A DNA stretch of 64,000 nt from Trypanosoma brucei (GCA_000002445.1 CM000207.1:1216001-1280000); one strand, 5' to 3'. Positions 33,017 to 56,503 are shown, counted from the stretch's first letter. The notes: generated by a model not told the origin, from the letters alone. Translations and numbers: made by a program.

Positions 33017-33310
33017 TTATTGAGTTGGTTGCTGCTCACTTTGACACTGTGTAAAGATTTCCCATGCCCATTTACATGGTGCCGCATTGCCTTCATTTGC
33101 TTCCAAACATTTTGCATAAGTTTGGACATGAGCTGCACAGGCACCGTTACCAACTTGTTGTGCCACCTGTTGCAACTCAGTGGGTTGTGCAGGCGGGGCA
33201 TTGCGGTCGAAGAGCATATGTGAAATGCCGTGGCCAATGACGGAACCGGCTGCAACTGATGCCACATTTCCAAGGAGACCGCTACCCATTCCACCACGCA
33301 GCACGTACAC
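33017..33310 (-). pseudogene. N-terminally truncated CHCH-domain copy in array unit 2.
   Basis: The track start is GTG (33308-33310 reads cac). The conserved helix and twin Cx9C are intact. Confidence 0.6.
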
Positions 33311-34153
33311 ATTTGTTACCTGAGGTTGCGGTTGCTGAGCAGTTGTCTGGTGCGTGTTTTGATGCTGTTGTCGTGTGCCAAAGAAAATTATGAAATATAT
33401 CCAATAAGTGTTTCTGCAACGAATAAGTAAGGTTATGTGAAACTAAAACACATAAAAGGATCACTGCTTTCCATAGTTCCTGCATGAGCAGAGAATTGTT
33501 GGCACATAACATCTACTAACACTAGCCATACTGACAGCAACTTATTCCTCCTGCCCTCCATCCTTGCACACACACCTCACAGTAACCAGTAACACTTCAC
33601 AACTATTTTAAACATCTGGCTTATTGTCTCAACAAAAGTCAGAGGGTTAGTAACTTTCCTCGTGTCGCATGCGAGGTTGCTGCAAAATGCGAAGAGTTCC
33701 ACCTTATCGCACACACATATCAAATACAAAGAGTAATAATTAAGTAATGTCGCGTAACTGTTTTAGTTATAATTCAACGTGAAGTGTTACGGATCCTAAT
33801 TCCTTTCAGATTGGAAACCGCAAACCATACAGTCCTGCTTCTTGTTACAAGTCAAGTGGGACATGCTAATTGGATTCAACTTCAATTAATTCCGTCATTT
33901 GCAGGTAGCAATAACATCTATCCTAAGAATTGTTATTTGCATTTAAAGGGTGAAATTGAGTGCATTCAGATAAAACAAAATAAGACTCATAGCAACAGCA
34001 AAAAGAGACTCTTTAGGGTTTATGGCAAACACAATCAATGAACAAACACACTATACCATTAACACAATTAAATTCCAAATACTATAACACATGTATTCTG
34101 TTCCAAAAAGTTACAATAAGTATTATGGTAATCACATCATAAGATTATTCCGG

Positions 34154-35263
34154 TCAAATTAAAAAGCATAAAAATGAAATTAGAAGTGCAAATAGTTTTT
34201 CCATCATATCTACATTTTGGTTATAAGCATAAGCACCATCAAAGGGTTTCCTCCTCATGTAAGATAACATTGGTAGCAACATTGTATCATCAAGAAGGCA
34301 TTGCTCCCTCTGTGCTGCGGTAAGATTGAGCCATGAGTTTTCAAGATACATTTTGTCAAGTTCCGCCTTTACACTGGGAGTGCTGTAACATGTTTCGGCA
34401 GAGCAAGCGGTGCAACTGCGTTTCTTCATTCCTTCCTCAAAATTTCGTGTCAACGACTTTAACGTTTCCTTTAAGTCCTGGAGGGAAGCAAGTGCTGCAT
34501 TTATCCTTGTCTCTTGAGGACCGGCGATGTATTGCGTAATGTTTTTGTCGCATCGTTTCTTCTCCTTTGTGATGCTGGCTTGTTGTTCGTCAATATCTTC
34601 CTGTAGGCTCTCAATACTTGCACTCATTTCCTTTAATTTTGTAAGTTTATGATGGCATTTTCCGCTTTCCTCTTTCTTTTTGTCTTGTTCTCGTAGCACA
34701 GTGGCCACTTGATCTTCCTTCTTATTAAGTTCGATTTGCAAATCTGTAACTTTTTGTTTGTCCGCCCCCGTTTGGCTAGTTACTGTTATATTGCACAAAC
34801 CTCTTTTTTCTACTTCGTTTTGTAAAGGCTTGTTTTTCTCAACCAATTCATTTAGAGTTTTATCGTTGTCGCAGGTCCAAAGCTTAGGTTCCGTATCATG
34901 TTTCAGAGAATAGCAAAATATCCACGTTTTATCAACTTCAAAAAAATTTTCACTATTTGAAAAAAATCTCCTCCCGTAACCACTGTAATCATCTCCCCTC
35001 CACGTTACGTCACTGCATCGTTCATCACTTGCTCTCACAGTTAAGCAAAATATCAGCAACAATAATCCAAACAGTATTCGCATCTTCCTAATAATCTTAT
35101 AGCAGTTATCACGGAACAAAGCACGCATATATTTTTTCCATAAACACATTTGCATAAGAATAACCAAATTTACCATTAATGGAACAAAACCAACTGTACC
35201 GATTCGCAAAATGATATTATCATGATAATTAACTAACATGTATGATATCCATAAAAATTCCAT
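34154..35263 (-). CDS. Array unit 2, type B: surface protein with a C-terminal hydrophobic tail.
   Basis: ATG at 35261-35263 gives a 60 aa N-terminal extension. The signal-peptide ATG (MRILFGLLLLIFCLTVRA) is at 35081-35083 and is more plausible as the start. The C-terminal 90 aa are near-identical to the other B copies. Confidence 0.7.
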   Translation of the reverse strand: MEFLWISYMLVNYHDNIILRIGTVGFVPLMVNLVILMQMCLWKKYMRALFRDNCYKIIRKMRILFGLLLLIFCLTVRASDERCSDVTWRGDDYSGYGRRFFSNSENFFEVDKTWIFCYSLKHDTEPKLWTCDNDKTLNELVEKNKPLQNEVEKRGLCNITVTSQTGADKQKVTDLQIELNKKEDQVATVLREQDKKKEESGKCHHKLTKLKEMSASIESLQEDIDEQQASITKEKKRCDKNITQYIAGPQETRINAALASLQDLKETLKSLTRNFEEGMKKRSCTACSAETCYSTPSVKAELDKMYLENSWLNLTAAQREQCLLDDTMLLPMLSYMRRKPFDGAYAYNQNVDMMEKLFALLISFLCFLI

Positions 35264-35359
35264 TATTAATTCACATAGTGGAAAGAAATCTCTGCTGATA
35301 CTGACAGATTAATAAGTAAGAAAAGATACGAACCCAACATATTTTATTTCCATAACTGT

Positions 35360-36208
35360 TTACATGTTTTCATTATATTTTGAATTACTCTCCTCATTAC
35401 CCTCATGTGACACCCCGCATTTAACACCTGATTTTTTCCATCCATCTTTTCCATATAATTTATCCAAATTTTCCTTTATGTGCACATCATCCCAACAAGT
35501 CCCAGCGTCACATGCGGGACAATTATTATTTCCAAGTTTTTCCAGCTGTTGTTCCTTCAGCTCTATTGCTCTCTTAACGTATTGAATTTCATCTAAGACT
35601 TTCTCCAATCTCTCTTTGTAATTCCCCTCTGTCCATATTTTCCTGTTTTCACACTCTTTTTCTTCCTGTTTAAAAAGTGCATCCACTCGTTTTTTTTCAT
35701 CCTGAAGGCTCCTTACCTTGCCTTCGGAACCAGCCATTCTCCCAATATCCTCTTCGCACTGTTTCTTTTCTCGATCCACCTGTGTGCACGCTGCCCGAAG
35801 GCGCACAACTTCCTTGTCTTTCCCACCAATTCGCCCCCGTAGCTGTTCGGCTTCACGGTCTAGCTCCATCCGTCTCTCATGCACTTTCCTTTTACAAAAG
35901 GATATATCACCTCCACTACTCCAATTGAATCTGTTTGTAATGAGGTCTGTTGGTTGCTCATCGCTTGAAATATCACAAAGCCATAACATTTCATTTGCTC
36001 CACCTATTCTTTCGCTCCTGTTGCATATCATCCACTTATGATTTTTTACCAAGAGGTCATCATTAGCCTTCATCACAGCCACCTTATCATCAACCTCTCC
36101 ATCCTTTTGGATTCTAACACATTTGACAGCCTCCACCCTTTCTGTAAAAGCCAAAAACAATATCAACCCCGCCAAAGAAAAAAACATAAGTGTCCCATAC
36201 TCTTTCAT
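35360..36208 (-). CDS. Array unit 2, type A: secreted coiled-coil protein, 282 aa.
   Basis: ATG verified at 36206-36208 (MKEYGTLMFFSLAGLILFLAFT, a signal peptide). The C-terminus NCPACDAGTCWDDVHIKENLDKLYGKDGWKKSGVKCGVSHEGNEESNSKYNENM is almost identical to unit 1, but the central region is different. Confidence 0.75.
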   Translation of the reverse strand: MKEYGTLMFFSLAGLILFLAFTERVEAVKCVRIQKDGEVDDKVAVMKANDDLLVKNHKWMICNRSERIGGANEMLWLCDISSDEQPTDLITNRFNWSSGGDISFCKRKVHERRMELDREAEQLRGRIGGKDKEVVRLRAACTQVDREKKQCEEDIGRMAGSEGKVRSLQDEKKRVDALFKQEEKECENRKIWTEGNYKERLEKVLDEIQYVKRAIELKEQQLEKLGNNNCPACDAGTCWDDVHIKENLDKLYGKDGWKKSGVKCGVSHEGNEESNSKYNENM

Positions 36209-36330
36209 ATTGTTAGTTCACACTATATATCCTTCAAACACTTTCTTGTCCTTGTTAACAAATACATATACCCAAACCAAATGAAATAATAGCAACAGTG
36301 AGTGTTAACTATAGTGACAGCAGCTTCTTT

Positions 36331-36351
36331 TCTTACCTTACCTTACCTTAC
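36331..36351. repeat. (CTTAC)4 pentanucleotide microsatellite, present in every array unit just upstream (on the minus strand) of the type A gene.
   Basis: cttaccttaccttaccttacc at 36331-36351. Equivalent tracts occur near 42135, 47880 and 53610. Confidence 0.8.
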
Positions 36352-38804
36352 CGTGGCACTGAATCTGCTTCCTCATTGACACACGGCACAATGGCAAGAC
36401 ACAAATAAACTTAAAACTAAAAATTAACAAAAAATATATATGTGATCCAAATACAAAATAGGTACAACAACATGTGCATTCAAATGCAAACCTAACTCAG
36501 AAAAAATACACGAAATAAATGAACACATGTATTCCGATTAGCACACGCATATATGAATATCCTTTGTCAAAGTCAGTTAACAGTTTTTTCCCTTAGCAAT
36601 CCTTATTCCATCCCCGCATGTCTTAAATTCTATTTCCCACAGCCTACAACACATATCAGATGCGCTACCACTTCTATCCTAGTGCCACAAACTCACATTA
36701 ATCAAATTTCCTTCGTCACACCTCTTTCCTCTGCACGCAGTTAGAGTTCAACAAACGCAGCAGCATCATAACTCTAGAAATGCCGGTAATGCGATTAGTC
36801 TCAAGAACAAACAATTAATACTAACGGGCTGCATCTCTCACTACAATCCACATAACAACACACCCCATGAAATATGAGAACTTTTGGTGACATTATATCG
36901 TTTAGCATTTCCTACCAACATTCAAAAGGATTTGCCACACATCACAATTAGTTACTGTATATTATAAAGCATCGTGAAATGGTGTAGCAGTACGAGAAAA
37001 GGGGAGTCTCTAGTCCCTCTCCCGTAACTTCATCATTTCAATAAATGCTAACAGTATTCACGACCCCATACAAAAAACAAGGAACAACAACATATGGGAT
37101 ATTTTACTGAATCCCACTCTCTACACATCACAGTGTAACCTGAAATGCACTCTTCACTTCGAGCTGCAGTAAACATGATAATTCCCATAATGCTCAATGA
37201 AAAGATAACAGAAATATATAACATATGATAGGTAATACATGATATATATTCCAGCACTTTTGTTGCTATTCCCAGAGATTCAACATTTTAGGAAACAAAA
37301 TATACAGAATCAACATTACTCCAATTGTATCAGCCTAACAAGACACTGAATTGAGGAAATTGTGTGAAACTTAAGTACTGGAAATGCGAGATATCATAAA
37401 CATTCCACGATTGGACTCAATGAAAACAAATGCAATCTTAAAGTTAGTATAACTAATGCATGGAATGACTGGAATTGTTGGAAATGAAGAATTTAATATA
37501 ACTAAAAAAAAATAATAGTATTTTCATCCGATATGGGAGCAAATATGATAGAATACCACAACAGTAATCTCAGTAGTTGAGATGCCAATAACACAGTTAA
37601 GTCACAGTTGCAGCATAAACACTTCTGGAAAGACTCCATAAAGGGAAAGAAAACTAATCATATTTCGAAGACTCAATTAGGCGTGGAAGAGAAACGGCAA
37701 CTGGTACAAAATAAATGTAACTGCAGGAACGCAGTGACTCCAAGTGGACATAAACCTAAGGAACTGATGTGAAACCTCATCTCCTGAATCTTATTAGTAA
37801 TGTGTAAACAAAAAAAGAAAGCAAAGAATCATTACACTCAATGCTTCTGTCACTACATATTTTGAATGTTTGTAAGTAAGCTAAGCTATTATATTGTGCG
37901 TATATTTATATTTTTTCTTTCCTTACCAAAAGAGTAAGGAATAAGGAGAGCGTATTCAAAGGAAAGATACTGAAGTGTAGTAGTGAAAATAACAACTCTT
38001 GCAGCAACTGAAAGAGCAGTGAGGGCACAAATGAATATGCTCATGCAATGCCTTCAACTTCACGCACGTTTAGCATAATATGAGTTACAGAGGCATCACT
38101 TAGTAGAAAAAAATAATAAAGCGTGGAAAAATAAAAATAATAATAATAATAGTAATAGTGGTAATCGTAATACCAAAGAAAGAAAGAGGTTATAGGGGTG
38201 GCAATAATAGTAACAAATTTACTATATATGGAAAAGAAAGTGTCGTATTCTCGAAAGTAATAAAGAGAGTAGTAAGAAAATGAAGAAGTACAACACTGAA
38301 TATTTTACTGGTTGAAACTGATTCGAAGAGAGCATGATATCAATAGAGTTGTAGGTGCTTCTCAATTCAGTAAAATGGTTGCGGCCACACTAATATGTCT
38401 TCCCTCTCATGCACAAACTCTCCTTCCTTTCCTCTTTTTGTTTCTTACTCATATGCCTTCATTTCCATCTGATCTTCTTTATTCTCACATTTCTAAACCT
38501 TCACATCACTTCGTTACAAAATCACTCGAATCTCGAACTACCAGTTCTCATAAATGCACCATGTCGTGTAAAACTTTTCCATGAGACCAGAAAAAATATT
38601 GACAAGAGGAGTGATACAATCATTCACTGGTTAGAGGCCACACTCGCAACAATGGAAAGAAATAAATGAGAAGTAAAAAGAAGGACAAAGCGAAAAACAA
38701 ATTATAGGGAGACAGTAACTCTTCCATTTCTCCTCCATTGCCTCAATATATCTTTTTCTTTCCTTTGTCTCTACAAACATTTGCTCCTTTCCCATACTGA
38801 TAAT

Positions 38805-39182
38805 TTATTGAGTTGGTTGCTGCTCACTTTGACACTGTGTAAAGGTTTCCCATGCCCATTTACATGGTGCCGCATTGCCTTCATTTGCTTCCAAACATTT
38901 TGCATAAGTTTGGACATGAGCTGCACAGGCACCGTTACCAACTTGTTGTGCCACCTGTTGCAACTCAGTGGGTTGTGCTGGCGGGGCATTGCGGTCAAAG
39001 AGCATATGTGAAATGCCGTGGCCAATGACGGAACCGGCTGCAACTGATGCCACATTTCCAAGGAGACCGCTACCCATTCCACCACGCTGCACGTACACAT
39101 TTATTACCTGAGGTTGCGGTTGCTGAGCAGTTGTCTGGTGTGTGTTTTGATGCTGTTGTTGCGGCAACGTTTCATGTGCCAA
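38805..39182 (-). pseudogene. N-terminally truncated CHCH-domain copy in array unit 3 (the track start is TTG).
   Basis: Retains QQHQNTHQTTAQQPQPQV of the ancestral linker. Upstream is junction sequence. Confidence 0.6.
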
Positions 39183-39954
39183 AGAAAATTAGGAAACACA
39201 TCCAATAAGTGCGTCTGCCACGAATATGTAAGGCTATGTGAAACTAAGACACATAAAAGGATCACTGCTTTCCATAGTTCCTGCATGAGCAGAGAATTGT
39301 TGGCACATAACATCTACTAACACTAGCCATACTGACAGCAACTTATTCCTCCTGCCCTCCATCCTTGCACACACACCTCACAGTAACCAGTAACACTTCA
39401 CAACTATTTTAAACATCTGGCTTATTGTCTCAACAAAAGTCAGAGGGTTAGTAACTTTCCTCGTGTCGCATGCGAGGTTGCTGCAAAATGCGAAGAGTTC
39501 CACCTTATCGCACACACATATCAAATACAAAGAGTAATAATTAAGTAATGTCGCGTAACTGTTTTAGTTATAATTCAACGTGAAGTGTTACGGATTCTAA
39601 TTCCTTTCAGATTGGAAACCGCAAACCATACAGTCCTGCTTCTTGTTACAAGTCAATTAGGACATGCTAATTGGATTCAACTTCAATTAATTCCGTCATT
39701 TGCAGGTAGCAATAACATCTATCCTAAGAATTGTTATTTGCATTTAAAGGGTGAAATTGAGTGCATTCAGATAAAACAAAATAAGACTCATAGCAACAGC
39801 AAAAAGAGACTCTTTAGGGTTTATGGCAAACACAATCAATGAACAAACACACTATACCATTAACACAATTAAATTCCAAATACTATAACACATGTATTCT
39901 GTTCCAAAAAGTTACAATAAGTATTATGGTAATCACATCATAAGATTATTCCGG

Positions 39955-40896
39955 TCAAATTAAAAAGCATAAAAATGAAATTAGAAGTGCAAATAGTTTT
40001 TCCATCATATCTACATTTTGGTTATAAGCATAAGCACCATCAAAGGGTTTCCTCCTCATGTAAGATAACATTGGTAGCAACATTGTATCATCAAGAAGGC
40101 ATTGCTCCCTGTGTGCTGCGGTAAGATTGAGCCATGAGTTTTCAAGATACTTGTTGTCAAGTTCCGCCTTTACACTGGGAGTGCTGTAACATGTTTCGGC
40201 AGAGCAAACACTGCAATTGTTTTTCTTTATTGCTTCCTCAAACATTTGTGTCGTCAAATTCAGCTGTTTCTTTAGGTCGTGGAGAGAAGCTTTTTTCTTT
40301 TTCAAGATTACTTTTTTGTGATTAGTGATATGATGTGTAATATTGTGATTGCATTGTTGCTTTACCTTCTCTATTTCATCTCTCTTTTCTCTGTTTGCTG
40401 TTTCGAGAGTTGCATTTGTTTGACTTTTGTCTCTTAACGTTTTTGGATCCTCGATACATGGTGGGTTTTTTTGCTTTGCTCCAGTGCTTTTTTTGTAATT
40501 TTCATTCTCGACCCCTAACTGCCGGAGTTTATCCTTCAATTTTTCAATTTTTTCTTTATGCACTCTTATTTGAGTTGCCACAGTACTGTCGCATAGATTT
40601 CCGCCCTCCACACTCTCTCGCAAAAGTTCGTGATTCTCGATTAAGTCTTTAAATGTTTTATCATTGCTACAACTCCAAACCTTTCCGCTTGTAAAATCAT
40701 TAGACGCATCGCAAAACATCCACTTTTTATCATTTCCAAAAAGTTTCTCCCCACCCTTCAAAACAAAACTCCTCGCATCATCGACGCCCTCCTCTCTGTA
40801 AACATCTTCCCTCTCTTTTATATAATAGCATGGATTATCATCCGCCCATATTGTTACGCAAGATATCAGCAACAACACTCCAAATAGTATTTGCAT
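39955..40896 (-). CDS. Array unit 3, type B: surface protein with a C-terminal hydrophobic tail.
   Basis: The track ORF starts at GTG (40959). The first ATG is at 40894-40896 (MQILFGVLLLISCVTIWADD, a signal peptide). C-terminus NCSVCSAETCYSTPSVKAELDNKYLENSW...LFALLISFLCFLI. Confidence 0.75.
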   Translation of the reverse strand: MQILFGVLLLISCVTIWADDNPCYYIKEREDVYREEGVDDARSFVLKGGEKLFGNDKKWMFCDASNDFTSGKVWSCSNDKTFKDLIENHELLRESVEGGNLCDSTVATQIRVHKEKIEKLKDKLRQLGVENENYKKSTGAKQKNPPCIEDPKTLRDKSQTNATLETANREKRDEIEKVKQQCNHNITHHITNHKKVILKKKKASLHDLKKQLNLTTQMFEEAIKKNNCSVCSAETCYSTPSVKAELDNKYLENSWLNLTAAHREQCLLDDTMLLPMLSYMRRKPFDGAYAYNQNVDMMEKLFALLISFLCFLI

Positions 40897-41172
40897 TTTT
40901 CTAATGCTCCTAGAGTAGATGATATGAAATAAAGCACGCGTATATATTTTCCATAACACATTTGCATAAGAGTTACAGAATTCACGATTAACATGGCGAA
41001 ACCAATTTTACCGATTCATGAAATGATATTATAATGATAATTAACCAAAATGTATGATATCCATAAAAAAATCCATTATTATTTCACATAGTGGTAAGAA
41101 ACAACTGCTTAAACTGACAGATTAATAAGTAAGAAAAGATACAAACCCAACATATTTTATTTCCATAACTGT

Positions 41173-42030
41173 TTACATGTTTTCATTATATTTTGAATGA
41201 TTCCCTTCAGTATCTTCATGTGACACCCCACATTTACCTCCTGATTTTGTCCATCCATCTTTTCCATATAGTTTATCCAACTCTTCCTTTATTTTCACAT
41301 CATCCCAGCAAGCTTCAGCGTCACATGAGGGACACTTATTAATTCCAAGTTCTTCTAGTTGCTGTTCCTTTAGTTCTATTGCTTTCATAACATTTTTGAT
41401 TTCTTCATCAATTTTTTCAAGTTCAATATCGTATTCCTTTTCCATATTTCGCTTAATATTTTCACACTCTGTCATTTCCTTTTCAATAAGAGAGTTCATT
41501 CGAGCACCTTCATTTATGATGTTCTGTATCTTGGTATCAGTATCTGTTATTTTTTCTATCTGATCTTGGCATTCCTGCTTTGTCTCCTGTGCTTTTGCAC
41601 CCAATATCTCCAGGTTTTTATTTATCATATCTTGCTCCACAATTTTACTGCTCAGCTGTATCTCCTCATCCTTAATTCTTTGGATCTCTTCCAGCACCTT
41701 CTTTTTACAGGTAGTTACGCTGCTTACATCATTACTCCAATTGAATTTGTTAACGAGAGTTGTGGGTGTCCCATCAATAGAGGCGTCGCACATCCAAAAC
41801 ACTTTATTTGCTTCTCCCACCCTATTAGTGACGTTGCATATCATCCATTTGTGACGTCTACTCACGAAGTGATCACCATTTTCTATCACAGCCTCCATCA
41901 CTCCTTCCACCTCCTCCCTTCTCACCATACAGGTTTTGGCTTTCGACTCGCCAGTGAAAACCAACAATATCACTCCCGCCAATGATAAAAACATAAGTGT
42001 CCCATACTCTTTCATATTGTCACCTCGCAT
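41173..42030 (-). CDS. Array unit 3, type A: secreted coiled-coil protein.
   Basis: The track ORF starts at GTG (42048). ATGs are at 42028-42030 (MRGDNMKEYG...) and 42013-42015 (MKEYGTLMFLSLAGVILLVFTG). C-terminus KCPSCDAEACWDDVKIKEELDKLYGKDGWTKSGGKCGVSHEDTEGNHSKYNENM. Confidence 0.75.
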   Translation of the reverse strand: MRGDNMKEYGTLMFLSLAGVILLVFTGESKAKTCMVRREEVEGVMEAVIENGDHFVSRRHKWMICNVTNRVGEANKVFWMCDASIDGTPTTLVNKFNWSNDVSSVTTCKKKVLEEIQRIKDEEIQLSSKIVEQDMINKNLEILGAKAQETKQECQDQIEKITDTDTKIQNIINEGARMNSLIEKEMTECENIKRNMEKEYDIELEKIDEEIKNVMKAIELKEQQLEELGINKCPSCDAEACWDDVKIKEELDKLYGKDGWTKSGGKCGVSHEDTEGNHSKYNENM

Positions 42031-46641: not shown

Positions 46642-46917
46642 TTTTCTAATGCTCCTAGAGTAGATGATATGAAATAAAGCACGCGTATATATTTTCCATA
46701 ACACATTTGCATAAGAGTTACAGAATTCACGATTAACATGGCGAAACCAATTTTACCGATTCATGAAATGATATTATAATGATAATTAACCAAAATGTAT
46801 GATATCCATAAAAAAATCCATTATTATTTCACATAGTGGTAAGAAACAACTGCTTAAACTGACAGATTAATAAGTAAGAAAAGATACAAACCCAACATAT
46901 TTTATTTCCATAACTGT

Positions 46918-47775: not shown

Positions 47776-50303
47776 TATATATCCTTCAAACACTTTCTTG
47801 TCCTTACCATCAGATACACGTAAACAAAATGGAACAATAGCAACAGCGAGTGTTAATTATAGTGACAGCAGCTTCTTTTCTTACCTTACCTTACCTTACC
47901 GTGGCACTGAATCTGCTTCCTTATTAACATACTGCACCATCTCAAGACAGAAAATTGATACTAAAAATTAACAAAAAGAACATAGATGTGATCCAAATAT
48001 CAAATAAAGCACCATCCACACACAAGCGCAAGCCTTTCACAGAATAGATACACGAAATAAATGAACACACATTTTCTGATCATCACACGCATATGCATAT
48101 CCTACATTAATTTCAGTTAACAGCTTTTGTCGTTAGCAATCCTTATTCCATCCCCGTACGTCTTACACTCTATTTCCCACGGCCTACAACACATATCAGA
48201 TGCGCTACCACTTCTATCCTACCACCACAAACTCACATTAATCAAATCCCCTCCATTTTCTCTTCCCCGCACGCAATTAGGGTTCAGTAAACGCAGTAGC
48301 ATCACAACTCTGGAGATGAGAAATGCGATTAGTCTGAAGAACAAACAATAGGTACTAACGGGTTGTATATAAATGGTCACAGCTTCGTACAACAACATCT
48401 CATGCAAAATGAAAACTAGTGATGGTACTGCACCTTTCAGCATTTCTTACCAACATTCAAAAGGATTTGGCGCACTTCCTAATTAGTTACTGTATATCGT
48501 AAAACACCGTCAAATTGTTGTACGAGAAAAAGGGAGTCTCTAGTCCCTCTCCCGTAACTTCATCATTTCAATAAATGCTAACAGTATTCATGACACCATA
48601 CAAAAGACAAGGAACAACAACATATGGGAGATTTTACAGAATCCCACTTCTACACATCACAGTGTAACCTGAAATGCACTCTTCACTTCGAGCTGCAGTA
48701 AACATGATAATTCCCATAATGCTCAATGAAAAGATAACAGAAATATATAACATATGATAGTTAATACATGATATACATTCCAGCACTTTTGTTGCTATTC
48801 CCAGAGATTCTACATGTTAGGAAACAAAATATACAGAATCAACATTACTCCAATTGCATCAGCCTCACAACACATTCGAGCGAGGGAATTGTGTAGAACT
48901 CAAGCACTGGAAATGTGAGATGCCATAAACATGTAACGATTAAACTTGAAAACAAATGCAACCTGCAAGTAAGTATAACTAATGCATGGAATGACTGGAA
49001 TTGTTGGAAATGAAGAATTTAATATAACTAAAAAGAATACGAGTATTTTCACGCGATAATGAATAATACATGATAGAATAATTCAACAGTAATCTCAGTG
49101 GTTGAGATGCCAATAACACAGTTAAGTCACAGTTGCAGCATAAACACTTCTGGAAAGACTCCATAAAGGGTAAGAAAACTAATCATATTTCAAAGACTCA
49201 ATTAGGCGTGGAAGAGCAACGGCAACTGGTACAAAATTAATGTAACTGCAGGAACATAGTGACACCAAGTGGCCATAAACTCAAGGAACTGATGTGAAAC
49301 CTCATCTCCTGAATCTTATTAGTAATGTGTAAAGAAAAAAGAAAGTAAAGAATCATTACACTCAATGCTTCTATCATTGCATATTTTGAATGTTTGTAAG
49401 CAAGCTAAGCTATTATATTGTGCGTATATTTATATTTTTTTTTCCCCTGGTAAAAGAGTAATGAATGAGAAGAGCGTATTCAAAAGAAAAATACTGAAGT
49501 GTAGTGGTGAAAACAACAACTCTTGCAGCAACTGAAAGAGCAGTGAGTGCACAAATGAATATGCTCATGCATGTCTATCAAAATGTGAGATACAGAGGCA
49601 TCACTTAGTAGAAAAAAATAATAAAGTGTGGAATAATAATAATAATAATAGTGGTAATCGTAATACCAAAGGAAGAAAGAAATAAAGACAGGTAATAATG
49701 GTGTGGCAATAATAGTAATAAATTTACTATATATGGAAAAGAAAGTGTCGTATCCTCGAAAGTAATAAAGAGAGTAATAAGAAAAGGAAGAAGTGCAACA
49801 CTGAATATTTTACTGGTTGAAACTGATTCGAAGAGAACATGGTATCAGTAGAGTTGTAGGTGCTTCTCAATTCAGTAAAATGGTTGTGACCACACAAATA
49901 TGTTTTCCCTCTCATGCACAAACTCTCCTTCCTTTACTCTCTTTGTTTCTTACTCATATGCCTTCATTTTCTTATCTTTTTGTTCTCACTTTTCTAAACC
50001 TTCAATTCGCTTCGTTATAAAGCCACTCAAATCTCGAACTACCAGTTTTGATAAATGCACCATGTCGAGTAAAACTTCCCCATGAGGACAGAAAACATGT
50101 TGACAAGAGGAGTGACATAATCATTCACTGGTTAGAGTCCACACTCGCAACAATGGAAAGAAATAAATCAGAAGTAAAACAACAAAGAGAAAAACAAATT
50201 ATATGGAAACACCAGCTTTCCCATTCCTCTCTTATTGCCTCAATATATCTTTCTTTCTTTCCTTTCTCCCTACAAACATTTGCCTCTTTCCTATACTGAT
50301 AAT

Positions 50304-50591
50304 TTATTGAGTTGGTTGCTGCTCACTTTGACACTGTGTAAAGGTTTCCCATGCCCATTTACATGGTGCCGCATTGCCTTCATTTGCTTCCAAACATTTT
50401 GCATAAGTTTGGACATGAGCTGCACAGGCACCGTTACCAACTTGTTGTGTTACCTGTTGCAACTCAGTGGGTTGTGCAGGCGGGGCATTGCGGTCGAAGA
50501 GCATATGTGAAATGCCGTGTCCAATGACGGAACCGGCTGCAACTGATGCCACATTTCCAAGGAGACCGCTACCCATTCCACCACGCTGCAC
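50304..50591 (-). pseudogene. N-terminally truncated CHCH-domain copy carried in array unit 5 (no ATG at the ORF start; an internal ATG exists at the GGMGSG Met).
   Basis: Identical to the 3' ~280 nt of 56057..56503. The track 'M' is a GTG. Upstream sequence diverges from the ancestral copy at the repeat junction (gttttgatg|...). Confidence 0.6.
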
Positions 50592-51442
50592 GTATACATT
50601 TGTTACCTGAGGTTGCGGTTGCTGAGCAGTTGTCTGGTGTGTGTTTTGATGATGTTAGTGTGTGCCGAAGAAAATTATGAAATATATCCAATAAGTGTTT
50701 CTGCAACGAATAAGTAAGGTTATGTGAAACTAAAACACATAAAAGGATCACTGCTTTCCATAGTTCCTGCATGAGCAGAGAATTGTTGGCACATAACATC
50801 TACTAACACTAGCCATACTGACAGCAACTTATTCCTCCTGCCCTCCATCCTTGCACACACACCTCACAGTAACCAGTAACACCTCACAACTATTTTAAAC
50901 ATCTGGCTTATTGTCTCAACAGGGATCAGAGGGTTGATGACATTCCCTCTGTCACAAGCGGGGTTATCGCGACGGTAAGTTATTTCATTTTATCCACACA
51001 TATATCAAATACAAAAAGTAATAATTAAGTGATGTCGCGTAACTGTTTTAGTCATAATTCACTGTGGAGTTTTGCGACCTTCAATTTCTTTCGAATTGCG
51101 AGTTGGAGGCCATACTGTTCCTGCTTCTTGTTGCAAGTCAATTAGGACATGTTAATTGGATTCATCCTCCATAAGTTCTGGCATTTGCAGGTAACAACAC
51201 CAGCATTATTTCTAAAAATTGTTATTTGCATTCAAAGAGTGAAATAGAGTGCATTTGGATAAAATAAATTAAGTCTCATAGCAACAGCAAAAAGAGACTC
51301 TTTAGGGTTTATTACAAACACATTCAATGAACAAACACACTATACCATTAACACAATTAAATTCCAAATACTATAACACATGTATTCTGTTCCAAAAAGT
51401 TACAATAAGTATTATGGTAATCACATCATAAGGTTATCACGA

Positions 51443-52378
51443 TTAAAGAAAAAAGCATAAAAATGAAATTACAAGTGCAAATAATTTTTCCATCATATCT
51501 ACATTTCGGTTATAAGCATAAGCACCATCAAAGGGTTTCCTCCTCATGTAAGATAACATTGGTAGCAACATTGCATCATCGAGAAGGCATTGCTCTCTCT
51601 GTGCCGCAGTAAGATTGAGCCATGAGTTTTCAAGATACTTGTTGTCGAGTTCCGCCTTTACACTGGGAGTGTTGTAACATGTTTCAGCAGAGCAAGCGGT
51701 GCAGCTGTTTTTGTTCATTTCCTCCTGTAGCTCCTGTGTTACTGTCTTTACTTGTTGTTTTAAATGGTTGAGAAGTGCAGCTTTTTTTTCCAATGCTACC
51801 TCTAGAGGAGCAGTGATTTCCTTAATGTCGCTGTTGCACTGTTGGTTCTTCCTCTTTATTTTGTTTTCTTTTTCGCGATTGTAGGCTTCAAGGGTTGTAA
51901 CGGTTGCATTCGAATTCTTTAATTTTGTGAGCAATTGCTTGCATTCATTACTTGCGTTCGTCTTCGTTGTGTGGTTCAGTTTGAGGAGCTCTGTATCAGC
52001 TTTCTTTTTGTCAAGCTCAGTTTGCAAATCCGTAACATTTTTCACCTGTATCTTCGTTTCGGTAGTTATTGTTTCGTTGCACAAGTCTCCCTTAACCACT
52101 TCATTTCGTAAAGACTCGTGATCCTCAACCAATTCATTTAGAGTTTTTTCGTTGCTGCAGTTCCAATAAAAGGAAACATTCCGCCGTCTTCGTTCCAACT
52201 CATCACAAAATATCCACTTCTTATCACTTTCAAAAAATTCCTCTCCACCCTTGGAAGAGAGAGCTTCCATTGATTTATTTTTTCCTTCCTCCATCCATTT
52301 TGTATAAGCGCAAGAATCAGCGCCTGCCCATTCATTTAAGCGAGAAATGAGCAACAAAACTCCAACTATCGTTCGCAT
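51443..52378 (-). CDS. Array unit 5, type B: surface protein with a C-terminal hydrophobic tail.
   Basis: ATG verified at 52376-52378 (MRTIVGVLLLISRLNEWAGADS). C-terminus SCTACSAETCYNTPSVKAELDNKYLENSW...LFALVISFLCFFL. Confidence 0.75.
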   Translation of the reverse strand: MRTIVGVLLLISRLNEWAGADSCAYTKWMEEGKNKSMEALSSKGGEEFFESDKKWIFCDELERRRRNVSFYWNCSNEKTLNELVEDHESLRNEVVKGDLCNETITTETKIQVKNVTDLQTELDKKKADTELLKLNHTTKTNASNECKQLLTKLKNSNATVTTLEAYNREKENKIKRKNQQCNSDIKEITAPLEVALEKKAALLNHLKQQVKTVTQELQEEMNKNSCTACSAETCYNTPSVKAELDNKYLENSWLNLTAAQREQCLLDDAMLLPMLSYMRRKPFDGAYAYNRNVDMMEKLFALVISFLCFFL

Positions 52379-52635
52379 TTTCTTAATGCCCCTACAGCAG
52401 ATGATATGAAATAAAGCACGCGTATATATTTTCCATAAAACATTTGCATAAGAGCAGCAATATTTCCACCCAAGAACAAAGCCAACTGTACCGATTCACA
52501 AAATGATATTATAATGATAATTAACTAACATGTATGATATTCATAAAAATTCCATTATTATTTCACATGATGGAAAGAAATCTCTGCTGATACTGACAGA
52601 TTAATAAGTAAGAAAAAATACAAACATAACATATT

Positions 52636-53508
52636 TTATTTCCATAACTGTTTACATGCTTCCGTAACATTTTTAATGATTTCCCTAAATACTTTTGGAT
52701 AACACTTCACGTTTGACCCCGCATTCATCCATCCATCTCTTCCATATAGTTTATCCAACTCTTCCTTTATTTTCACATCATCCCAACAGGTCTCACCATC
52801 ACATGCGGGACACTCTTTATTCAACATAAGCATTTTCAATTGCTGCTTCTTTAGCTCCAATGTCTTATTCACATTTCTGATTTCTTCGTCCATTTTTTCA
52901 AGTTTACATTCGTATTCTTCCATCGCTTCATACTTCCCGTTTTCGCACTCTCTTGTCTCTTTTTCCATAAGCGTGTCCAGTCGTGCACTTTCTTTCGTAA
53001 GGTTCCATATCTTACCGTCCTCCTTAGTAACTATTCCAACCTCCTTCCAACATTCCTGTTTTGCTTGATCTGCCTCCTCACTCTCTGCTCGAAGACGCTT
53101 ATGCTCATTTTCTTCGTCGCCAATCATCTTCCGGAGTTCCGCTGCCTCCTTCTCAAGGTTCTCCTTCTTCTCCTGCACTTTTGTTTTGCAAACAGTTATG
53201 TTACTTACCTCACTGCTCCAGCTAAGTTTCTTCATGATGATACTTGTGGGATGTTCATTATTTGAGGCATCACAAAACCACTTAATTTTATTTCTCTCCT
53301 CCTTTGTCCCGCTGCTGTTGCATACCATCCACATCGGCTCAGAGCTCATAAAGTAATGACCGTTATCGATTTCAGCCACAACATCTCCTTCTTTGCCTTT
53401 TAAAGTGCAAATATCCGCGTCCACCCTCCCAGTGAAAACCAACAATATCACTCCCGCCAATGATAAAAACATAAGTGTCCCATACTCTTTCATATTGTCA
53501 CCTCGCAT
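52636..53508 (-). CDS. Array unit 5, type A: secreted coiled-coil protein whose C-terminal tail differs from the other A copies (...DGWMNAGSNVKCYPKVFREIIKNVTEACKQLWK).
   Basis: The track ORF starts at TTG (53565). ATGs are at 53506-53508 and 53491-53493 (MKEYGTLMFLSLAGVILLVFTG). The conserved KECPACDGETCWDDVKIKEELDKLYGRDGW is followed by a divergent tail. This is caused by indels relative to the other units (compare 52636-52760 with 41173-41290). Confidence 0.7.
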   Translation of the reverse strand: MRGDNMKEYGTLMFLSLAGVILLVFTGRVDADICTLKGKEGDVVAEIDNGHYFMSSEPMWMVCNSSGTKEERNKIKWFCDASNNEHPTSIIMKKLSWSSEVSNITVCKTKVQEKKENLEKEAAELRKMIGDEENEHKRLRAESEEADQAKQECWKEVGIVTKEDGKIWNLTKESARLDTLMEKETRECENGKYEAMEEYECKLEKMDEEIRNVNKTLELKKQQLKMLMLNKECPACDGETCWDDVKIKEELDKLYGRDGWMNAGSNVKCYPKVFREIIKNVTEACKQLWK

Positions 53509-56056
53509 TATATATCCTTCAAACACTTTCTTGTCCTTGTTAACAAATACATATACCCAAACCAAATGGAATAATAGAAACAGCGAGTGTTAATTATAGT
53601 GACAGCAGCTTCTTTTCTTACCTTACCTTACCTTACCGTGGCACCGAATCTGCTTCCTTATTAACATACTGCACCATCTCAAGACAGAAAATTGATACTA
53701 AAAATTAACAAAAAGAACATAGATGTGATCCAAATATCAAATAAAGCACCATCCACACACAAGCGCAAGCCTTTCACAGAATAGATACACGAAATAAATG
53801 AACACACATTTTCTGATCATCACACGCATATGCATATCCTACATTAATTTCAGTTAACAGCTTTTGTCGTTAGCAATCCTTATTCCATCCCCGTACGTCT
53901 TACACTCTATTTCCCACGGCCTACAACACATATCAGATGCGCTACCACTTCTATCCTACCACCACAAACTCACATTAATCAAATCCCCTCCATTTTCTCT
54001 TCCCCGCACGCAATTAGGGTTCAGTAAACGCAGTAGCATCACAATTCTGGAGATTCCGGTAATGCGATCACCCTGAAGAACAATTAATATTAACGGGCTG
54101 CATCTCTCACTACAATTCCACATAACGACACACCCCATGAAATATGAGAACTTTTGGTGACATTATATCGTTTGGCATTTCCTACCAACATTCAAAAGGA
54201 TTTGCCACACATCACAATTAGTTACTGTATATCGTAAAACACCGTGAAATAGTGTAGCAGTACGAGAAAAAGGGAGTCTCTAGTCCCTCTCCCGTAACTT
54301 CATCATTTCAATAAATGCTAACAGTGGCTATAACCCCAAACAGAAAAAACAAGGAACAACAACATATGGGATATTCGACTAAATCCCATCTCTCTGCATC
54401 ACAGTGTCACCTGGAATGCATCTTTCACCTCGAGTTGAAGTAAACAAAATAATTCCTACAGTATCGAATGGAAATATAACAGAAATGCATAACATATGAT
54501 AGGTAATACGTAATACATATTCCAGCACTTTTGTCACTATACGCGGAGATCTGACATGTTGGGAAACAAAATATACAACATCAACATTACTCCAATTGCA
54601 TCAGCCTCACAATACACTCAAGTGAAAGAAATGTAGAACTCAAGTACTGGAAATGCGAGATATCATAAACTTGCCACAGTTAAACTCAGTGAAAACAAAT
54701 GCAATCTGGAAGTAAGTGTAACTAATGTATGGAATGACTGGAATTGTTGGAAATACAGAATTTAATATAACTAAAAATAATACGTGTATTTTCATGCCAC
54801 ACGGAATAAAAAATGTGATAGAATACAACAACAGTAACCACAGTGGCTGAAATTCAAATAACACAGTTAAGTCACAGTTGCAGCATAAACACTTCTGGAA
54901 AGACTCCATAAAGGGAAAGAAAACTAATCATATTTCAAAGACTCAATTAGGCGTGGAAGAGAAACGGCAACTGGTACAAAATTAATGTAACTGCAGGAAC
55001 ATAGTGACACCAAGTGGCCATAAACTCAAGCGCCTGATGTGAAACCTCACCTCCTGAATCTTATTAGTAATGTGTAAACAAAAAAAGAAAGCATAGAATC
55101 ATTGCACTCAATGCTTCCATCATTGCATATTTTGAATGTTTGTAAGTAAGCTAAGCTATTATATTGTGCGTATATTTATATATTTTCTTCCCCTGGTAAA
55201 AGAGTAAGGAATGAGAAGAGCTTATTCAAGAAAAATACTGAAGTGTAGTGGTGAAAACAACAACTCTTGCAGCAACTGAAAGAGCAGTGAGCGTACAAAT
55301 GAATATGCTCATGCAATGCCTTCAACTTCACGCACGTTTAGCATAATGTGAGATACAGAGGCATCACTTAGTAGAAAAAAATAATAAAGTGTGGAATAAT
55401 AATAATAATAATAGTGGTAATTGTAATACCAAAGAAATAGAGGTTATAGGGGTGGCAATAATAGTAACAAATTTACTATATATGGAAAAGAAAGTGTCGT
55501 ATTCTCGAAAGTAATAAAGAGAGTAATAAGAAAAGGAAGAAGTGCAACACTGAATATTTTACTGGTTGAAACTGATTCGAAGAGAACATGGTATCAGTAG
55601 AGTTGTAGGTGCTTCTCAATTCAGTAAAATGGTTGTGACCACACAAATATGTTTTCCCTCTCATGCACAAACTCTCCTTCCTTTCCTCTTTTTATTTCTC
55701 ACTCATATGCCTTCATTTCCTTATCTTTTTCTTTGTTCTCACTTTTCTAAACCTTCACATCACTTCGTTACAAAGCCACTCAAATCTCGAACTACCAGTT
55801 TTGATAAATGCACCATGTCGAGTAAAACTTCCCCATGAGGACAGAAAACATGTTGACAAGAGGAGTGACATAATCATTCACTGGTTAGAGTCCACACTCG
55901 CAACAATGGAAAGAAATAAATCAGAAGTAAAACAACAAAGAGAAAAACAAATTATATGGAAACACCAGCTTTCCCATTCCTCTCTTATTGCCTCAATATA
56001 TCTTTCTTTCTTTCCTTTCTCCCTACAAACATTTGCCTCTTTCCTATACTGATAAT

Positions 56057-56503
56057 TTATTGAGTTGGTTGCTGCTCACTTTGACACTGTGTAAAGGTTT
56101 CCCATGCCCATTTACATGGTGCCGCATTGCCTTCATTTGCTTCCAAACATTTTGCATAAGTTTGGACATGAGCTGCACAGGCACCGTTACCAACTTGTTG
56201 TGCCACCTGTTGCAACTCAGTGGGTTGTGCTGGCGGGGCATTGCGGTCGAAGAGCATATGTGAAATGCCGTGGCCAATGACGGAACCGGCTGCAACTGAT
56301 GCCACATTTCCAAGGAGACCGCTACCCATTCCACCACGCTGCACGTACACATTTGTTACCTGAGGTTGCGGTTGCTGAGCAGTTGTCTGGTGTGTGTTTT
56401 GATGATTATGTTGTTGTTGTTGATGTGGTGGTGGTGTTGTGCGTGCGGGTGAAGCCGCAGCGGCGGGGCGCGGAGATGAGGCTGAACGACGAGTGCGAGC
56501 CAT
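56057..56503 (-). CDS. Full-length twin-Cx9C CHCH-domain protein of the CHCHD2/CHCHD10/Mix17 type (mitochondrial intermembrane space).
   Basis: ATG verified at 56501-56503. Arg/Ser/Ala/Pro-rich N-terminus (MARTRRSASSPRPAAAASPARTT), then a Gln/His-rich linker. The conserved hydrophobic helix GMGSGLLGNVASVAAGSVIGHGISHMLF compares with human CHCHD2 AAGVAVGSAVGHTLGHAITGGF. Two Cx9C pairs: CAAHVQTYAKC and CKWAWETFTQC. Confidence 0.75.
   Translation of the reverse strand: MARTRRSASSPRPAAAASPARTTPPPHQQQQHNHQNTHQTTAQQPQPQVTNVYVQRGGMGSGLLGNVASVAAGSVIGHGISHMLFDRNAPPAQPTELQQVAQQVGNGACAAHVQTYAKCLEANEGNAAPCKWAWETFTQCQSEQQPTQ

What the first reader, a model, noticed from the sequence alone, without database searches (positions are those of the whole stretch)
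33017..56503. A mitochondrial CHCH-domain (CHCHD2/Mix17-like) gene marks the array origin; its 3' two-thirds has been co-amplified into every unit as N-terminally truncated copies
The full gene (56057..56503) has a presequence-like N-terminus and a Gln/His-rich linker. The repeat-unit breakpoint falls inside this linker. Sequence identity with the copies stops at ...gttttgatg (56343 in the ancestral gene, 33355/39148/44922/50645 in the copies). Each array unit therefore carries a copy that retains the conserved helix and both Cx9C pairs but lacks the original N-terminus. None begins with ATG; the track starts are GTG or TTG. An in-frame ATG exists at GGMGSG. Twin-Cx9C proteins are imported by the MIA pathway without a presequence, so truncated copies could still yield functional small intermembrane-space proteins if they are trans-spliced. 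Alternatively they are passenger pseudogenes that date the array to a single unequal-crossover founder event. A partial copy of only ~7 codons at 27515 marks the left end of the array.
Basis: partly seen in the sequence, partly recalled or inferred. Interest (0 to 1): 0.6.

Follow-up and report, generated by a model that had tools for sequence, protein, structure and literature searches.

The report
Truncated CHCH gene copies in array
A small mitochondrial CHCH (Mix17/CHCHD2-like) gene of Trypanosoma brucei sits at the head of a published five-unit tandem duplication whose breakpoint cuts through it, so each unit carries a headless copy that is most likely a passenger kept similar by gene conversion; this is real but ordinary and largely already described.

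Summary
The window is T. brucei brucei TREU927 chromosome 9 (Tb927_09_v4 1,216,001-1,280,000). Tb927.9.7980 (56057-56503, minus strand, 148 aa) is a Mix17/CHCHD2-like twin-Cx9C gene. Four N-terminally truncated copies of its last 348 nt lie in a 5.75-kb tandem array, all with one identical novel junction. Corrections: the junction ends at 56404 in the full gene (not 56343) and at 33364/39152/44910/50651 in the copies. The left-end relic is 75 nt (25 codons), not about 7 codons.

The array is already published as a three-gene, five-repeat segmental duplication (Jackson 2010, Fig. 2). Two truncated copies are already annotated as 90-aa CDS. New here: the same junction occurs in T. equiperdum IVM-t1 and in another sequencing run. 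DAL972 has one unit with no fragment, and T. vivax has no array.

The copies behave as passengers. They lack the native polypyrimidine tracts, and an out-of-frame AUG lies 23 nt upstream of the usable AUG. Their private changes are near neutral (omega about 0.5, against 0.08 for full-length copies). A non-coding 75-nt relic is equally well conserved, and similarity follows the genome rather than copy type, which indicates gene conversion. Expression was not tested. Interest is low.

The parts
56057..56503 (-). Full-length CHCH gene Tb927.9.7980 (EAN76813/XP_827143, 148 aa). It has an Arg-rich N-terminus, a Q/H/P linker, a conserved hydrophobic helix and twin Cx9C pairs.
   Evidence: ORF. Exact match to the TREU927 protein. 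Gene ID and Mic17 similarity. Orthologue alignment with invariant C109/C119/C130 and near-invariant C140. CHCHD2 profile hit.
50304..50651 (-). Truncated copy T50k: last 348 nt of the CDS. The 90-codon ORF from the GGM ATG is 50304-50576. It is not in the NCBI protein set.
44563..44910 (-). Truncated copy T44k. It is annotated as a 90-aa CDS (EAN76807, inferred Tb927.9.7920, 44563-44835). It carries S81T and G105C at genus-invariant positions and Q55L.
38805..39152 (-). Truncated copy T39k. It is annotated as a 90-aa CDS (EAN76804, inferred Tb927.9.7890, 38805-39077). It differs from the full gene at 2 nt.
33017..33364 (-). Truncated copy T33k. It carries Q55L and T136I. It is not in the NCBI protein set.
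27515..27589 (-). 75-nt relic of the CHCH linker (codons 34-58) at the left end of the array. It is 74/75 identical to the full gene, cannot encode a protein, and abuts the ingi-mediated insertion.
27590..56404 (.). Tandem array of five 5.74-5.79 kb units (27590-33364, 33365-39152, 39153-44910, 44911-50651, 50652-56404). In transcription order (minus strand) each unit holds the CHCH 3' part, its downstream region, geneB, geneA and about 0.86 kb.
   Evidence: Published as a 5729-bp, 3-gene, 5-copy segmental duplication.
51443..53508 (-). Unit 5 surface-protein pair: Tb927.9.7950 (geneA, 51443-52378) and Tb927.9.7960 (geneB, 52636-53508), orthologous to the single DAL972 pair. Paralogous pairs lie at 28398-30453, 34154-36208, 39955-42030 and 45700-47775. 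These are the likely selective drivers of the amplification.
56865..57006 (-). Strong polypyrimidine tracts (20/20 and 18/20 pyrimidines) upstream of the full gene. They are presumed to be its trans-splice signals. They lie outside the repeat unit and so are absent from all truncated copies.
   Evidence: sequence scan only; usage not shown
33004..33312 (-). Out-of-frame ORF (102 aa) opened by an ATG 23 nt upstream of the GGM ATG. Equivalents lie at 38771-39100 and 44550-44858. This ATG is the nearest AUG upstream of the GGM AUG in any transcript of a truncated copy. The T. equiperdum annotation calls this frame as the gene (109 aa).
20767..27514 (+). Ingi-mediated insertion directly left of the array. 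The ingi element spans about 20767-26025 and has RT, RNase H and zinc-finger ORFs broken by frame interruptions. The insertion is absent from DAL972.
   Evidence: Jackson 2010 reports a '7 kb insertion ... ingi ... at 1.24 Mb'.

Best explanation
Tb927.9.7980 is the single, conserved trypanosome member of the CHCHD2/CHCHD10/Mix17 family of intermembrane-space proteins. In the T. brucei lineage a pair of surface-protein genes (geneB, geneA) lies directly downstream of it.

One illegitimate recombination joined a point in the CAA/CAG-rich Gln/His linker of the CHCH gene to a point about 0.86 kb downstream of geneA. That made the first tandem duplication of a 5.75-kb segment. Unequal crossing-over then changed the copy number: 5 units in TREU927, at least 2 in T. 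equiperdum IVM-t1, and 1 in DAL972 and T. evansi STIB805.

Because the breakpoint lies inside the CHCH gene, every extra unit carries a headless copy (codons 34-148). Each copy lacks the start codon, the presequence-like N-terminus and the native trans-splicing signals.

These copies are passengers. The amplification was probably driven by the fast-diverging surface-protein pair. The fragments stay nearly identical to the functional gene because of gene conversion or recombination among copies, with the constrained full-length gene in the pool. Selection on a truncated protein is not needed to explain this.

The fragments are most likely transcribed only as part of the polycistronic precursor, or as part of the long 3' region of geneA mRNAs.

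Shown: the anatomy, the shared junction, the outgroup states, the concerted evolution and the relaxed substitution pattern. Inferred: the order of events, the driver of amplification, and the lack of efficient processing and translation.
For: Shared junction and array:
- All four internal copies and the left relic share one junction.
- The same junction occurs in T. equiperdum IVM-t1 at L003:15896 and in the Logan contig from run ERR7929156.

Outgroups:
- DAL972 has one unit, a full 148-aa gene and no fragment.
- T. vivax has E2, CHCH and the Tb927.9.7830 orthologue (91% identity), with no surface-protein genes and no repeats.
- Read coverage indicates one unit in T. evansi STIB805.

Concerted evolution:
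- TREU927 truncated copies differ from the TREU927 full gene at 2-6 sites. They differ from the T. equiperdum truncated copy at 13-15 sites, despite the shared junction.
- Linker sites 6 and 18 separate all TREU927 copies from the other genomes regardless of copy type, and at site 12 the T. equiperdum full and truncated copies share a state.

Relaxed constraint:
- Changes private to truncated copies are 9 non-synonymous to 5-6 synonymous (omega 0.44-0.52; not different from neutral, p=0.10-0.19).
- Full-length copies show 2:7 (omega 0.08, p=7e-4).
- The private changes hit residues invariant across the genus: G105C, S81T, L64P.

Internal control:
- The non-coding 75-nt relic is 74/75 identical to the full gene.

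Expression signals:
- The native 20/20 and 18/20 polypyrimidine tracts lie outside the unit. The copies have only 16/20 tracts in the 860 nt upstream.
- An out-of-frame ATG at -23 opens an overlapping 102-109 codon ORF.
- No in-frame upstream ATG exists.

Conserved N-terminus:
- The N-terminal M-x-R motif is conserved family-wide (R3 invariant). The Leishmania orthologue is predicted to have a cleavable targeting sequence. The deleted part is therefore probably functional.
Against: - All four copies keep an intact 90-codon ORF with no indel.
- The fragment is the least variable 348-nt window of the whole unit: 13/348 variable columns against 18.8% in non-coding sequence (p=6e-16). Even third codon positions are low at 7/116 (p=1e-4). 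Some purifying selection on the copies cannot be excluded.
- An omega of about 0.5 is below 1, although not significantly so.
- Weak pyrimidine-rich stretches followed by AG exist at the junction, and trypanosomes can use weak acceptors.
- The TREU927 annotation treats two copies as genes.
- No RNA or protein data could be examined here.
Confidence: 0.75

Rival explanations
1. The truncated copies are functional genes. They are trans-spliced at weak acceptors near the junction and translated from the GGM AUG into 90-aa presequence-less Mix17-like proteins. These enter the intermembrane space by oxidative trapping and give array-bearing strains extra isoforms.
For: - Intact ORFs with no indels in all copies, including the T. 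equiperdum copy and the ERR7929156 copy.
- The fragment is the least variable part of the unit.
- Two copies are annotated as CDS.
- In opisthokonts the CHCH domain can suffice for import of twin-Cx9C proteins (established knowledge, not tested here).
- The Leishmania orthologue is trapped with Erv in a redox interactome.
Against: - Kinetoplastids lack Mia40, and the orthologue is predicted to use a cleavable presequence.
- The N-terminal motif that was removed is conserved across eukaryotes.
- There is no strong polypyrimidine tract upstream.
- An out-of-frame AUG lies 23 nt upstream and opens a long overlapping ORF.
- The N:S ratio is near neutral and substitutions hit invariant residues.
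- The non-coding 75-nt relic is equally conserved.
- The copies are absent from DAL972 and T. evansi, so they are dispensable.
Confidence: 0.1
2. The fragments are retained because they serve in cis. They would act as part of the 3' UTR and polyadenylation region of the upstream geneA mRNA, or as spacing for the processing signals of the downstream geneB. Selection would then act on RNA, not protein.
For: - Low variation extends to synonymous sites.
- No strong acceptor lies between geneA and the fragment, so geneA transcripts plausibly run through it.
- Pyrimidine tracts begin about 100 nt downstream of the CHCH stop codon.
Against: - The leftmost geneA (28398-29366) is followed by only the 75-nt relic.
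- DAL972 geneA has no fragment downstream, so the fragment is not required.
- Concerted evolution with the full gene explains the conservation more simply.
- No transcript ends were examined.
Confidence: 0.1
3. The array, or its truncated copies, is an assembly artefact of the TREU927 reference.
For: Tandem repeats are prone to misassembly, and Jackson 2010 warns that assembled copy numbers can be arbitrary.
Against: - The units differ at 19% of non-coding columns and about 50% of surface-gene columns, so they are distinct sequences.
- The junction is seen independently in a T. equiperdum chromosome-scale assembly and in a Logan contig.
- Read-depth comparison supports multiple copies in TREU927.
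Confidence: 0.02

Closest known systems
Human CHCHD2/CHCHD10 and yeast Mix17 (formerly Mic17)
   Same: The three-part architecture matches: a basic N-terminus (M-x-R...), a conserved hydrophobic helix (AAGSxIGHxIxH) and a C-terminal twin Cx9C domain. The best PDB profile hit is CHCHD2 (E=4.9e-6), and CHCHD10 is also hit. HHpred similarity to yeast Mic17 was noted in PMC9034290.
   Different: The linker is Gln/His-rich. The organism lacks Mia40. Localisation is unproven: the protein was not detected in the T. brucei mitochondrial importome. The Pfam CHCH score is below the gathering cut-off (21.6 against 27.2 bits).
Leishmania tarentolae LtaP04.0660
   Same: It is the named homologue of Tb927.9.7980. 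It has a twin Cx9C motif, a predicted cleavable targeting sequence and a hydrophobic segment at residues 56-76.
   Different: It is the only typical twin-Cx9C protein trapped with LtErv. No tandem array or truncated copies were reported for it.
T. b. brucei subspecies- or strain-specific segmental duplications (Jackson et al. 2010, PLoS NTD, Fig. 2 and Table 1: Tbg972.9.4160-4130, 5729 bp, 3 genes, 5 copies)
   Same: This is the very locus: same unit length, same copy number, same flanking ingi insertion, and the upstream-most unit is orthologous to DAL972.
   Different: The paper calls the first CDS a 'putative secretory protein' whose 'copies are identical'. Here it is shown to be a CHCH/Mix17-like gene. 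Its array copies are 5'-truncated at one junction and differ from the full gene at 2-6 nt. The array is not private to TREU927.
Partial-gene fragments at the boundaries of tandem segmental duplications (truncated boundary pseudogenes homogenised by gene conversion)
   Same: There is one novel junction per unit. The fragment lacks its 5' end and expression signals. Evolution is concerted with the intact parent gene.
   Different: In a polycistronic genome the fragment is still transcribed, so lack of a promoter is not the disabling step. The disabling step is loss of the trans-splice signals and the start codon.

Membership tests
CHCHD2/CHCHD10/Mix17 family (full-length gene) | C-terminal twin Cx9C (CHCH) domain | tested here: met
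   C109-x9-C119 and C130-x9-C140. C109, C119 and C130 are invariant and C140 is nearly invariant across 15 homologues. Pfam CHCH E=2.4e-4, but below the gathering score. 11 of 15 family members match CHCH.
CHCHD2/CHCHD10/Mix17 family (full-length gene) | Conserved central hydrophobic helix preceding the CHCH domain | tested here: met
   VASVAAGSVIGHGISHMLF aligns to the CHCHD2 segment TAAGVAVGSAVGHTLGHAI. The profile hit to 9oyr_A has E=4.9e-6. G73, G77, G79, I80 and S81 are invariant.
CHCHD2/CHCHD10/Mix17 family (full-length gene) | Basic presequence-like N-terminus | tested here: met
   The first 30 residues have 5 Arg and no Asp or Glu. M1 is nearly invariant and R3 invariant across homologues. 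The orthologue is predicted to have a cleavable targeting sequence.
CHCHD2/CHCHD10/Mix17 family (full-length gene) | Intermembrane-space localisation and disulfide-relay-dependent import | not testable with these tools
   The protein was not detected in the T. brucei importome. Kinetoplastids lack Mia40. The Leishmania orthologue was trapped with Erv.
CHCHD2/CHCHD10/Mix17 family (truncated copies as functional members) | Complete architecture including the N-terminus and its own start codon | tested here: not met
   Codons 1-33 are missing. There is no in-frame ATG before the GGM codon, and in-frame stops lie 2-27 codons upstream of the junction.
Independently processed trypanosome mRNA gene (truncated copies) | Polypyrimidine tract plus AG acceptor upstream of the ORF, and the first AUG in frame | tested here: inconclusive
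   Only weak 16/20 pyrimidine tracts are present, against 20/20 and 18/20 for the native gene. An out-of-frame ATG lies at -23. Actual spliced-leader addition sites were not available.
Tandem segmental duplication from a single founder event | Head-to-tail units with one identical novel junction, and a single copy in an outgroup | tested here: met
   Five units of 5741-5788 bp with the same junction. The junction is shared with T. equiperdum and ERR7929156. There is one unit in DAL972 and none in T. vivax.
Retroposed (processed) pseudogene | Poly(A) tail, target-site duplication and a dispersed location | tested here: not met
   The copies sit in register inside tandem units, with the native 3' flank continuing for kilobases.

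The most novel reading that the evidence does not exclude
The truncated copies are trans-spliced at weak acceptors beside the junction and translated from the internal GGM AUG. This would give array-bearing T. brucei strains up to four variant, presequence-less 90-aa Mix17-like proteins. They would reach the intermembrane space by Erv-linked oxidative trapping and modulate, or interfere with, the full-length protein. That would be a natural experiment on whether the N-terminus of this family is needed for import in a Mia40-less eukaryote.
Probability: 0.08. Interest if true: 0.45.

Novelty: already known. Interest (0 to 1): 0.18.

Why it matters
It matters little beyond annotation hygiene.

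- The locus is a published strain-variable segmental duplication. The CHCH fragments correct that description: they are truncated and non-identical, and the parent is a Mix17/CHCHD2-like gene rather than a 'secretory' one.
- Tb927.9.7890 and Tb927.9.7920 should probably be flagged as gene fragments. Reads and peptides from Tb927.9.7980 can mis-map to them.
- The shared junction is a convenient PCR marker for presence and copy number of the array across Trypanozoon strains. It shows that the duplication predates the split of TREU927 and T. equiperdum IVM-t1.
- The parent gene is of some interest as a candidate partner of Erv in a lineage that lacks Mia40.

Tried and rejected
- Exact-sequence look-ups of the GTG/TTG-started ORFs, the 90-aa ORFs of the 33k and 50k copies and the out-of-frame ORFs found nothing. 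No transcript-derived contigs could therefore be recovered. The one Logan contig found (L002) is genomic and carries no spliced leader.
- Literature look-ups for expression led nowhere. Jensen 2014 ribosome profiling removed Tb927.9.7980 as an 'annotation error' and Tb927.9.7970 as 'opposite strand reads', and does not list 7890 or 7920. The Nilsson 2010 SL-trapping supplements gave nothing usable. No paper in the library mentions the truncated-copy IDs.
- I tried to reconstruct the pre-duplication breakpoint from DAL972. The roughly 80 nt next to the junction have no counterpart there; DAL972 has an A15 run and unrelated sequence instead. Microhomology at the distal breakpoint therefore could not be tested.
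- Tandem Repeats Finder returned nothing because the period exceeds 500.
- The T. congolense locus could not be fetched because the protein has no contig on record.
- Rejected readings: a retro-copy origin, an assembly artefact, and independent truncations (see the rivals and the membership test).

Full report
**Identity of the window.** Exact protein look-ups place the window on T. brucei brucei TREU927 chromosome 9. Spermidine synthase EAN76794 lies at 8796-9692 and the E2 enzyme EAN76814 at 57269-57721. Coordinates in a supplementary table of the T. evansi genome paper fix the offset: window position 1 corresponds to Tb927_09_v4:1,216,001 (Tb927.9.7860 = 29596-30453). All genes around the finding are on the minus strand, so transcription runs from high to low coordinates.

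**The observation.** The ORF 56057-56503 (-) encodes 148 aa and is identical to EAN76813/XP_827143. Two papers identify it as Tb927.9.7980. Repeat analysis shows a tandem array with a period of about 5.75 kb. Searching for the junction word gives six occurrences, ending at 27589, 33364, 39152, 44910, 50651 and 56404. These define five units of 5741-5788 bp.

An alignment of the boundaries shows that each internal boundary carries the 3' 348 nt of the CHCH coding sequence plus its downstream flank. Identity to the full gene stops at ...GTTTTGATG, after which every copy continues with the same unrelated sequence (CTGTTG...TGTGCCAAAGAAAATT...). The breakpoint lies after codon 33, in the Gln/His linker. 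Because the linker is a CAA/CAG repeat, the exact base is ambiguous by about 9 nt.

The 'about 7 codon' left-end fragment really starts at 27515, but it is 75 nt (25 codons) long and 74/75 identical to the full gene.

All four copies keep an open frame to the native stop codon and have no indels. None has an in-frame ATG upstream of the junction, and in-frame stops lie 2-27 codons upstream. The first in-frame ATG is the Met of GGMGSG, which gives a 90-codon ORF.

**What the gene is.** Orthologues of 140-151 aa exist as single proteins in T. b. gambiense, T. congolense, T. vivax, T. cruzi, T. theileri, T. melophagium, T. conorhini and T. grayi. More distant homologues occur in other eukaryotes, including a fungus. 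The alignment shows a three-part architecture:
- a basic M-x-R N-terminus (R3 invariant);
- a low-complexity Pro/Ala/Gln linker;
- an almost invariant helix (VASVAAGSVIGHGISHMLF) followed by twin Cx9C pairs.

A profile of this alignment finds human CHCHD2 as the best PDB sequence match (E=4.9e-6, covering the N-terminus and helix). CHCHD10 is also found, and the C-terminal part hits CHCHD5, COA6 and Cox12. Pfam CHCH is matched below its gathering score for the T. brucei protein alone, but by 11 of 15 family members.

The literature agrees. [quoted passage not shown] Its L. tarentolae homologue LtaP04.0660 is the only typical twin-Cx9C protein trapped with Erv. That homologue is predicted to have a cleavable targeting sequence and a hydrophobic segment (PMC8557897).

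**What was already known.** Jackson et al. 2010 (PMC2854126) describe this very locus in Table 1 and Figure 2. [quoted passage not shown] Carnes et al. [quoted passage not shown] The TREU927 annotation already contains two of the truncated copies as 90-aa 'hypothetical protein, conserved' entries (EAN76804, EAN76807), which UniProt calls 'CHCH domain-containing protein'.

The published description is inexact in one respect. It calls the first gene a 'putative secretory protein' whose 'copies are identical'. In fact the copies are 5'-truncated and differ from the full gene at 2-6 positions. The 33k and 50k copies are not in the NCBI protein set.

**Ancestral state and founder event.** In DAL972 (L001) the order is E2, CHCH (148 aa), geneB, geneA, then the Tb927.9.7830 orthologue. 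There is one unit, no CHCH fragment and no ingi element. The DAL972 unit aligns best with unit 5, at 93% in one block that continues into the right flank, against 80-84% for the other units.

In T. vivax (L004) the order is E2, CHCH (140 aa), then directly the Tb927.9.7830 orthologue (91% identity). There are no surface-protein genes and no repeats.

The array is not private to TREU927. The T. equiperdum IVM-t1 chromosome (L003) has a truncated copy at 15896-16243 with exactly the same junction. A Logan contig from run ERR7929156 (L002) has it as well. One founder junction, with variable copy number since, is therefore the simplest history.

The 75-nt relic at the left end does not fit a clean array of whole units. 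It abuts the roughly 6.75-kb ingi-mediated insertion (20767-27514; RT, RNase H and zinc-finger ORFs). The most likely reading is that a further unit was truncated by that rearrangement. This step is an inference.

**Passenger or functional?** Four lines of evidence favour passenger status.

1. Expression signals. The native gene has strong polypyrimidine tracts (20/20 and 18/20 pyrimidines) 362-503 nt upstream of its ATG. All of them lie outside the repeat unit. In the roughly 860 nt between the geneA stop codon and the GGM ATG, the copies have only 16/20 tracts.
2. Upstream AUG. An out-of-frame ATG sits 23 nt upstream of the GGM ATG and opens a 102-109 codon overlapping ORF. It is the nearest AUG upstream of the GGM AUG in any transcript of a truncated copy. 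The T. equiperdum annotation even calls that frame as the gene.
3. Substitution pattern. Changes private to truncated copies are 9 non-synonymous to 5-6 synonymous (omega 0.44-0.52), not distinguishable from neutrality (p=0.10-0.19). Variation among the three full-length genes is 2:7 (omega 0.08, p=7e-4). The contrast between the two sets is only suggestive (Fisher p about 0.09-0.10). The private changes include G105C, S81T and L64P at positions invariant across the genus.
4. Deleted N-terminus. The removed N-terminal motif is conserved across eukaryotes.

**The counter-signal.** The CHCH fragment is the least variable 348-nt window of the whole unit. It has 13/348 variable columns and no gaps, against 18.8% variable columns in non-coding sequence (p=6e-16). 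Third codon positions are also low, at 7/116 (p=1e-4).

Two observations explain this without invoking a functional truncated protein. First, TREU927 truncated copies are closer to the TREU927 full gene (2-6 differences) than to the T. equiperdum truncated copy (13-15 differences), although they share the founder junction. At linker sites 6 and 18 all TREU927 copies differ from the other genomes regardless of copy type, and at site 12 the T. equiperdum full and truncated copies share a state. That is the signature of concerted evolution by gene conversion or recombination with the constrained parent. Second, the 75-nt relic, which cannot encode anything, is just as conserved (74/75). Weak purifying selection on the copies cannot be formally excluded.

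**Mechanism proposed.** One illegitimate recombination joined the CAA-rich linker of Tb927.9.7980 to a site about 0.86 kb downstream of geneA, creating the first duplicate. Unequal crossing-over then expanded or contracted the array. The fast-diverging surface-protein pair is the plausible selective driver: 47-53% of its columns vary between units, and Jackson 2010 predicted a transmembrane protein and a GPI-anchored protein.

The CHCH fragments are boundary relics, homogenised against the parent gene. They are probably present only in the polycistronic precursor or in long geneA 3' regions. The anatomy, junction sharing, outgroup states, concerted evolution and relaxed substitution pattern are shown. 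The order of events, the driver and the lack of processing or translation are inferred. No RNA or protein data could be examined.

**Verdict.** The functional alternative is unlikely (about 10%). The locus and its amplification are already published and partly annotated, so novelty is low. The useful residue has three parts:
- a corrected description of the first gene of the repeat;
- a recommendation to flag Tb927.9.7890 and Tb927.9.7920 as fragments;
- a junction marker showing that the duplication is an old, copy-number-polymorphic feature of Trypanozoon rather than a TREU927 peculiarity.

Noticed in passing
window 28398-30453, 34154-36208, 39955-42030, 45700-47775, 51443-53508 (-): The two array genes are distant paralogues of each other (20% identity, E=5e-13). 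Both have signal-peptide-like N-termini, a coiled-coil middle and a shared C-terminal C-x-x-C-x-x-E-x-C-[WY] motif. Only geneA ends in a hydrophobic, GPI-signal-like tail. Their N-terminal halves are only 55-66% identical between units, while flanking non-coding DNA is 82-96% identical. This suggests diversifying selection. An anchored plus non-anchored pair recalls the ESAG6/7 arrangement, but that is a recollection and was not tested.
   Followed up: partly
window 39153-50651: Units 3 and 4 are almost identical over long stretches and encode identical 313-aa geneA proteins (EAN76805 = EAN76808). The other unit pairs are much more diverged. The array therefore grew in steps, and the latest duplication is very recent.
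   Followed up: partly
window 20767-27514 (+): An ingi retroelement of about 5.25 kb (20767-26025) carries RT, RNase H and C2H2 zinc-finger ORFs interrupted by frame breaks. It is followed by about 1.5 kb of retroelement-like debris that ends exactly where the CHCH relic begins. DAL972 has about 2 kb of mostly unrelated sequence in its place.
   Followed up: partly
window 33004-33312, 38771-39100, 44550-44858, 56044-56352 (-); L003:15948-16277: A 102-109 codon ORF overlaps the CHCH coding sequence in another frame and starts at an ATG 23 nt upstream of the GGM codon. It has no Pfam match. The T. equiperdum IVM-t1 annotation calls it as a gene, probably a mis-call.
   Followed up: partly
window about 55660-56260 (+): Tb927.9.7970 is a plus-strand ORF overlapping the 3' end of the CHCH gene. 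It is labelled 'hypothetical protein, unlikely' and was removed from a ribosome-profiling analysis for 'opposite strand reads'. In the same table Tb927.9.7980 is marked 'annotation error' without explanation.
   Followed up: no
window 39153-39180 and 27590-27617, versus 33365-33380, 44911-44926 and 50652-50667: A 13-nt indel (TTGCGGCAACGTT) lies immediately after the junction. It is present in the 39k copy and in the left-end relic. It is absent from the other three copies and from the T. equiperdum and ERR7929156 copies. The relic shares the Q55L variant with the 33k and 44k copies, so the boundary sequences are mosaics.
   Followed up: no
L001 (DAL972) reverse-complement 2631-4610 versus window 20767-27589: Between the Tb927.9.7840 region and the first unit, the two subspecies share almost no alignable sequence; only 162 nt align, at 67% identity. 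The rest of the locus is 93-96% identical. That is itself far more diverged than the 99.2% coding average reported for these subspecies.
   Followed up: no
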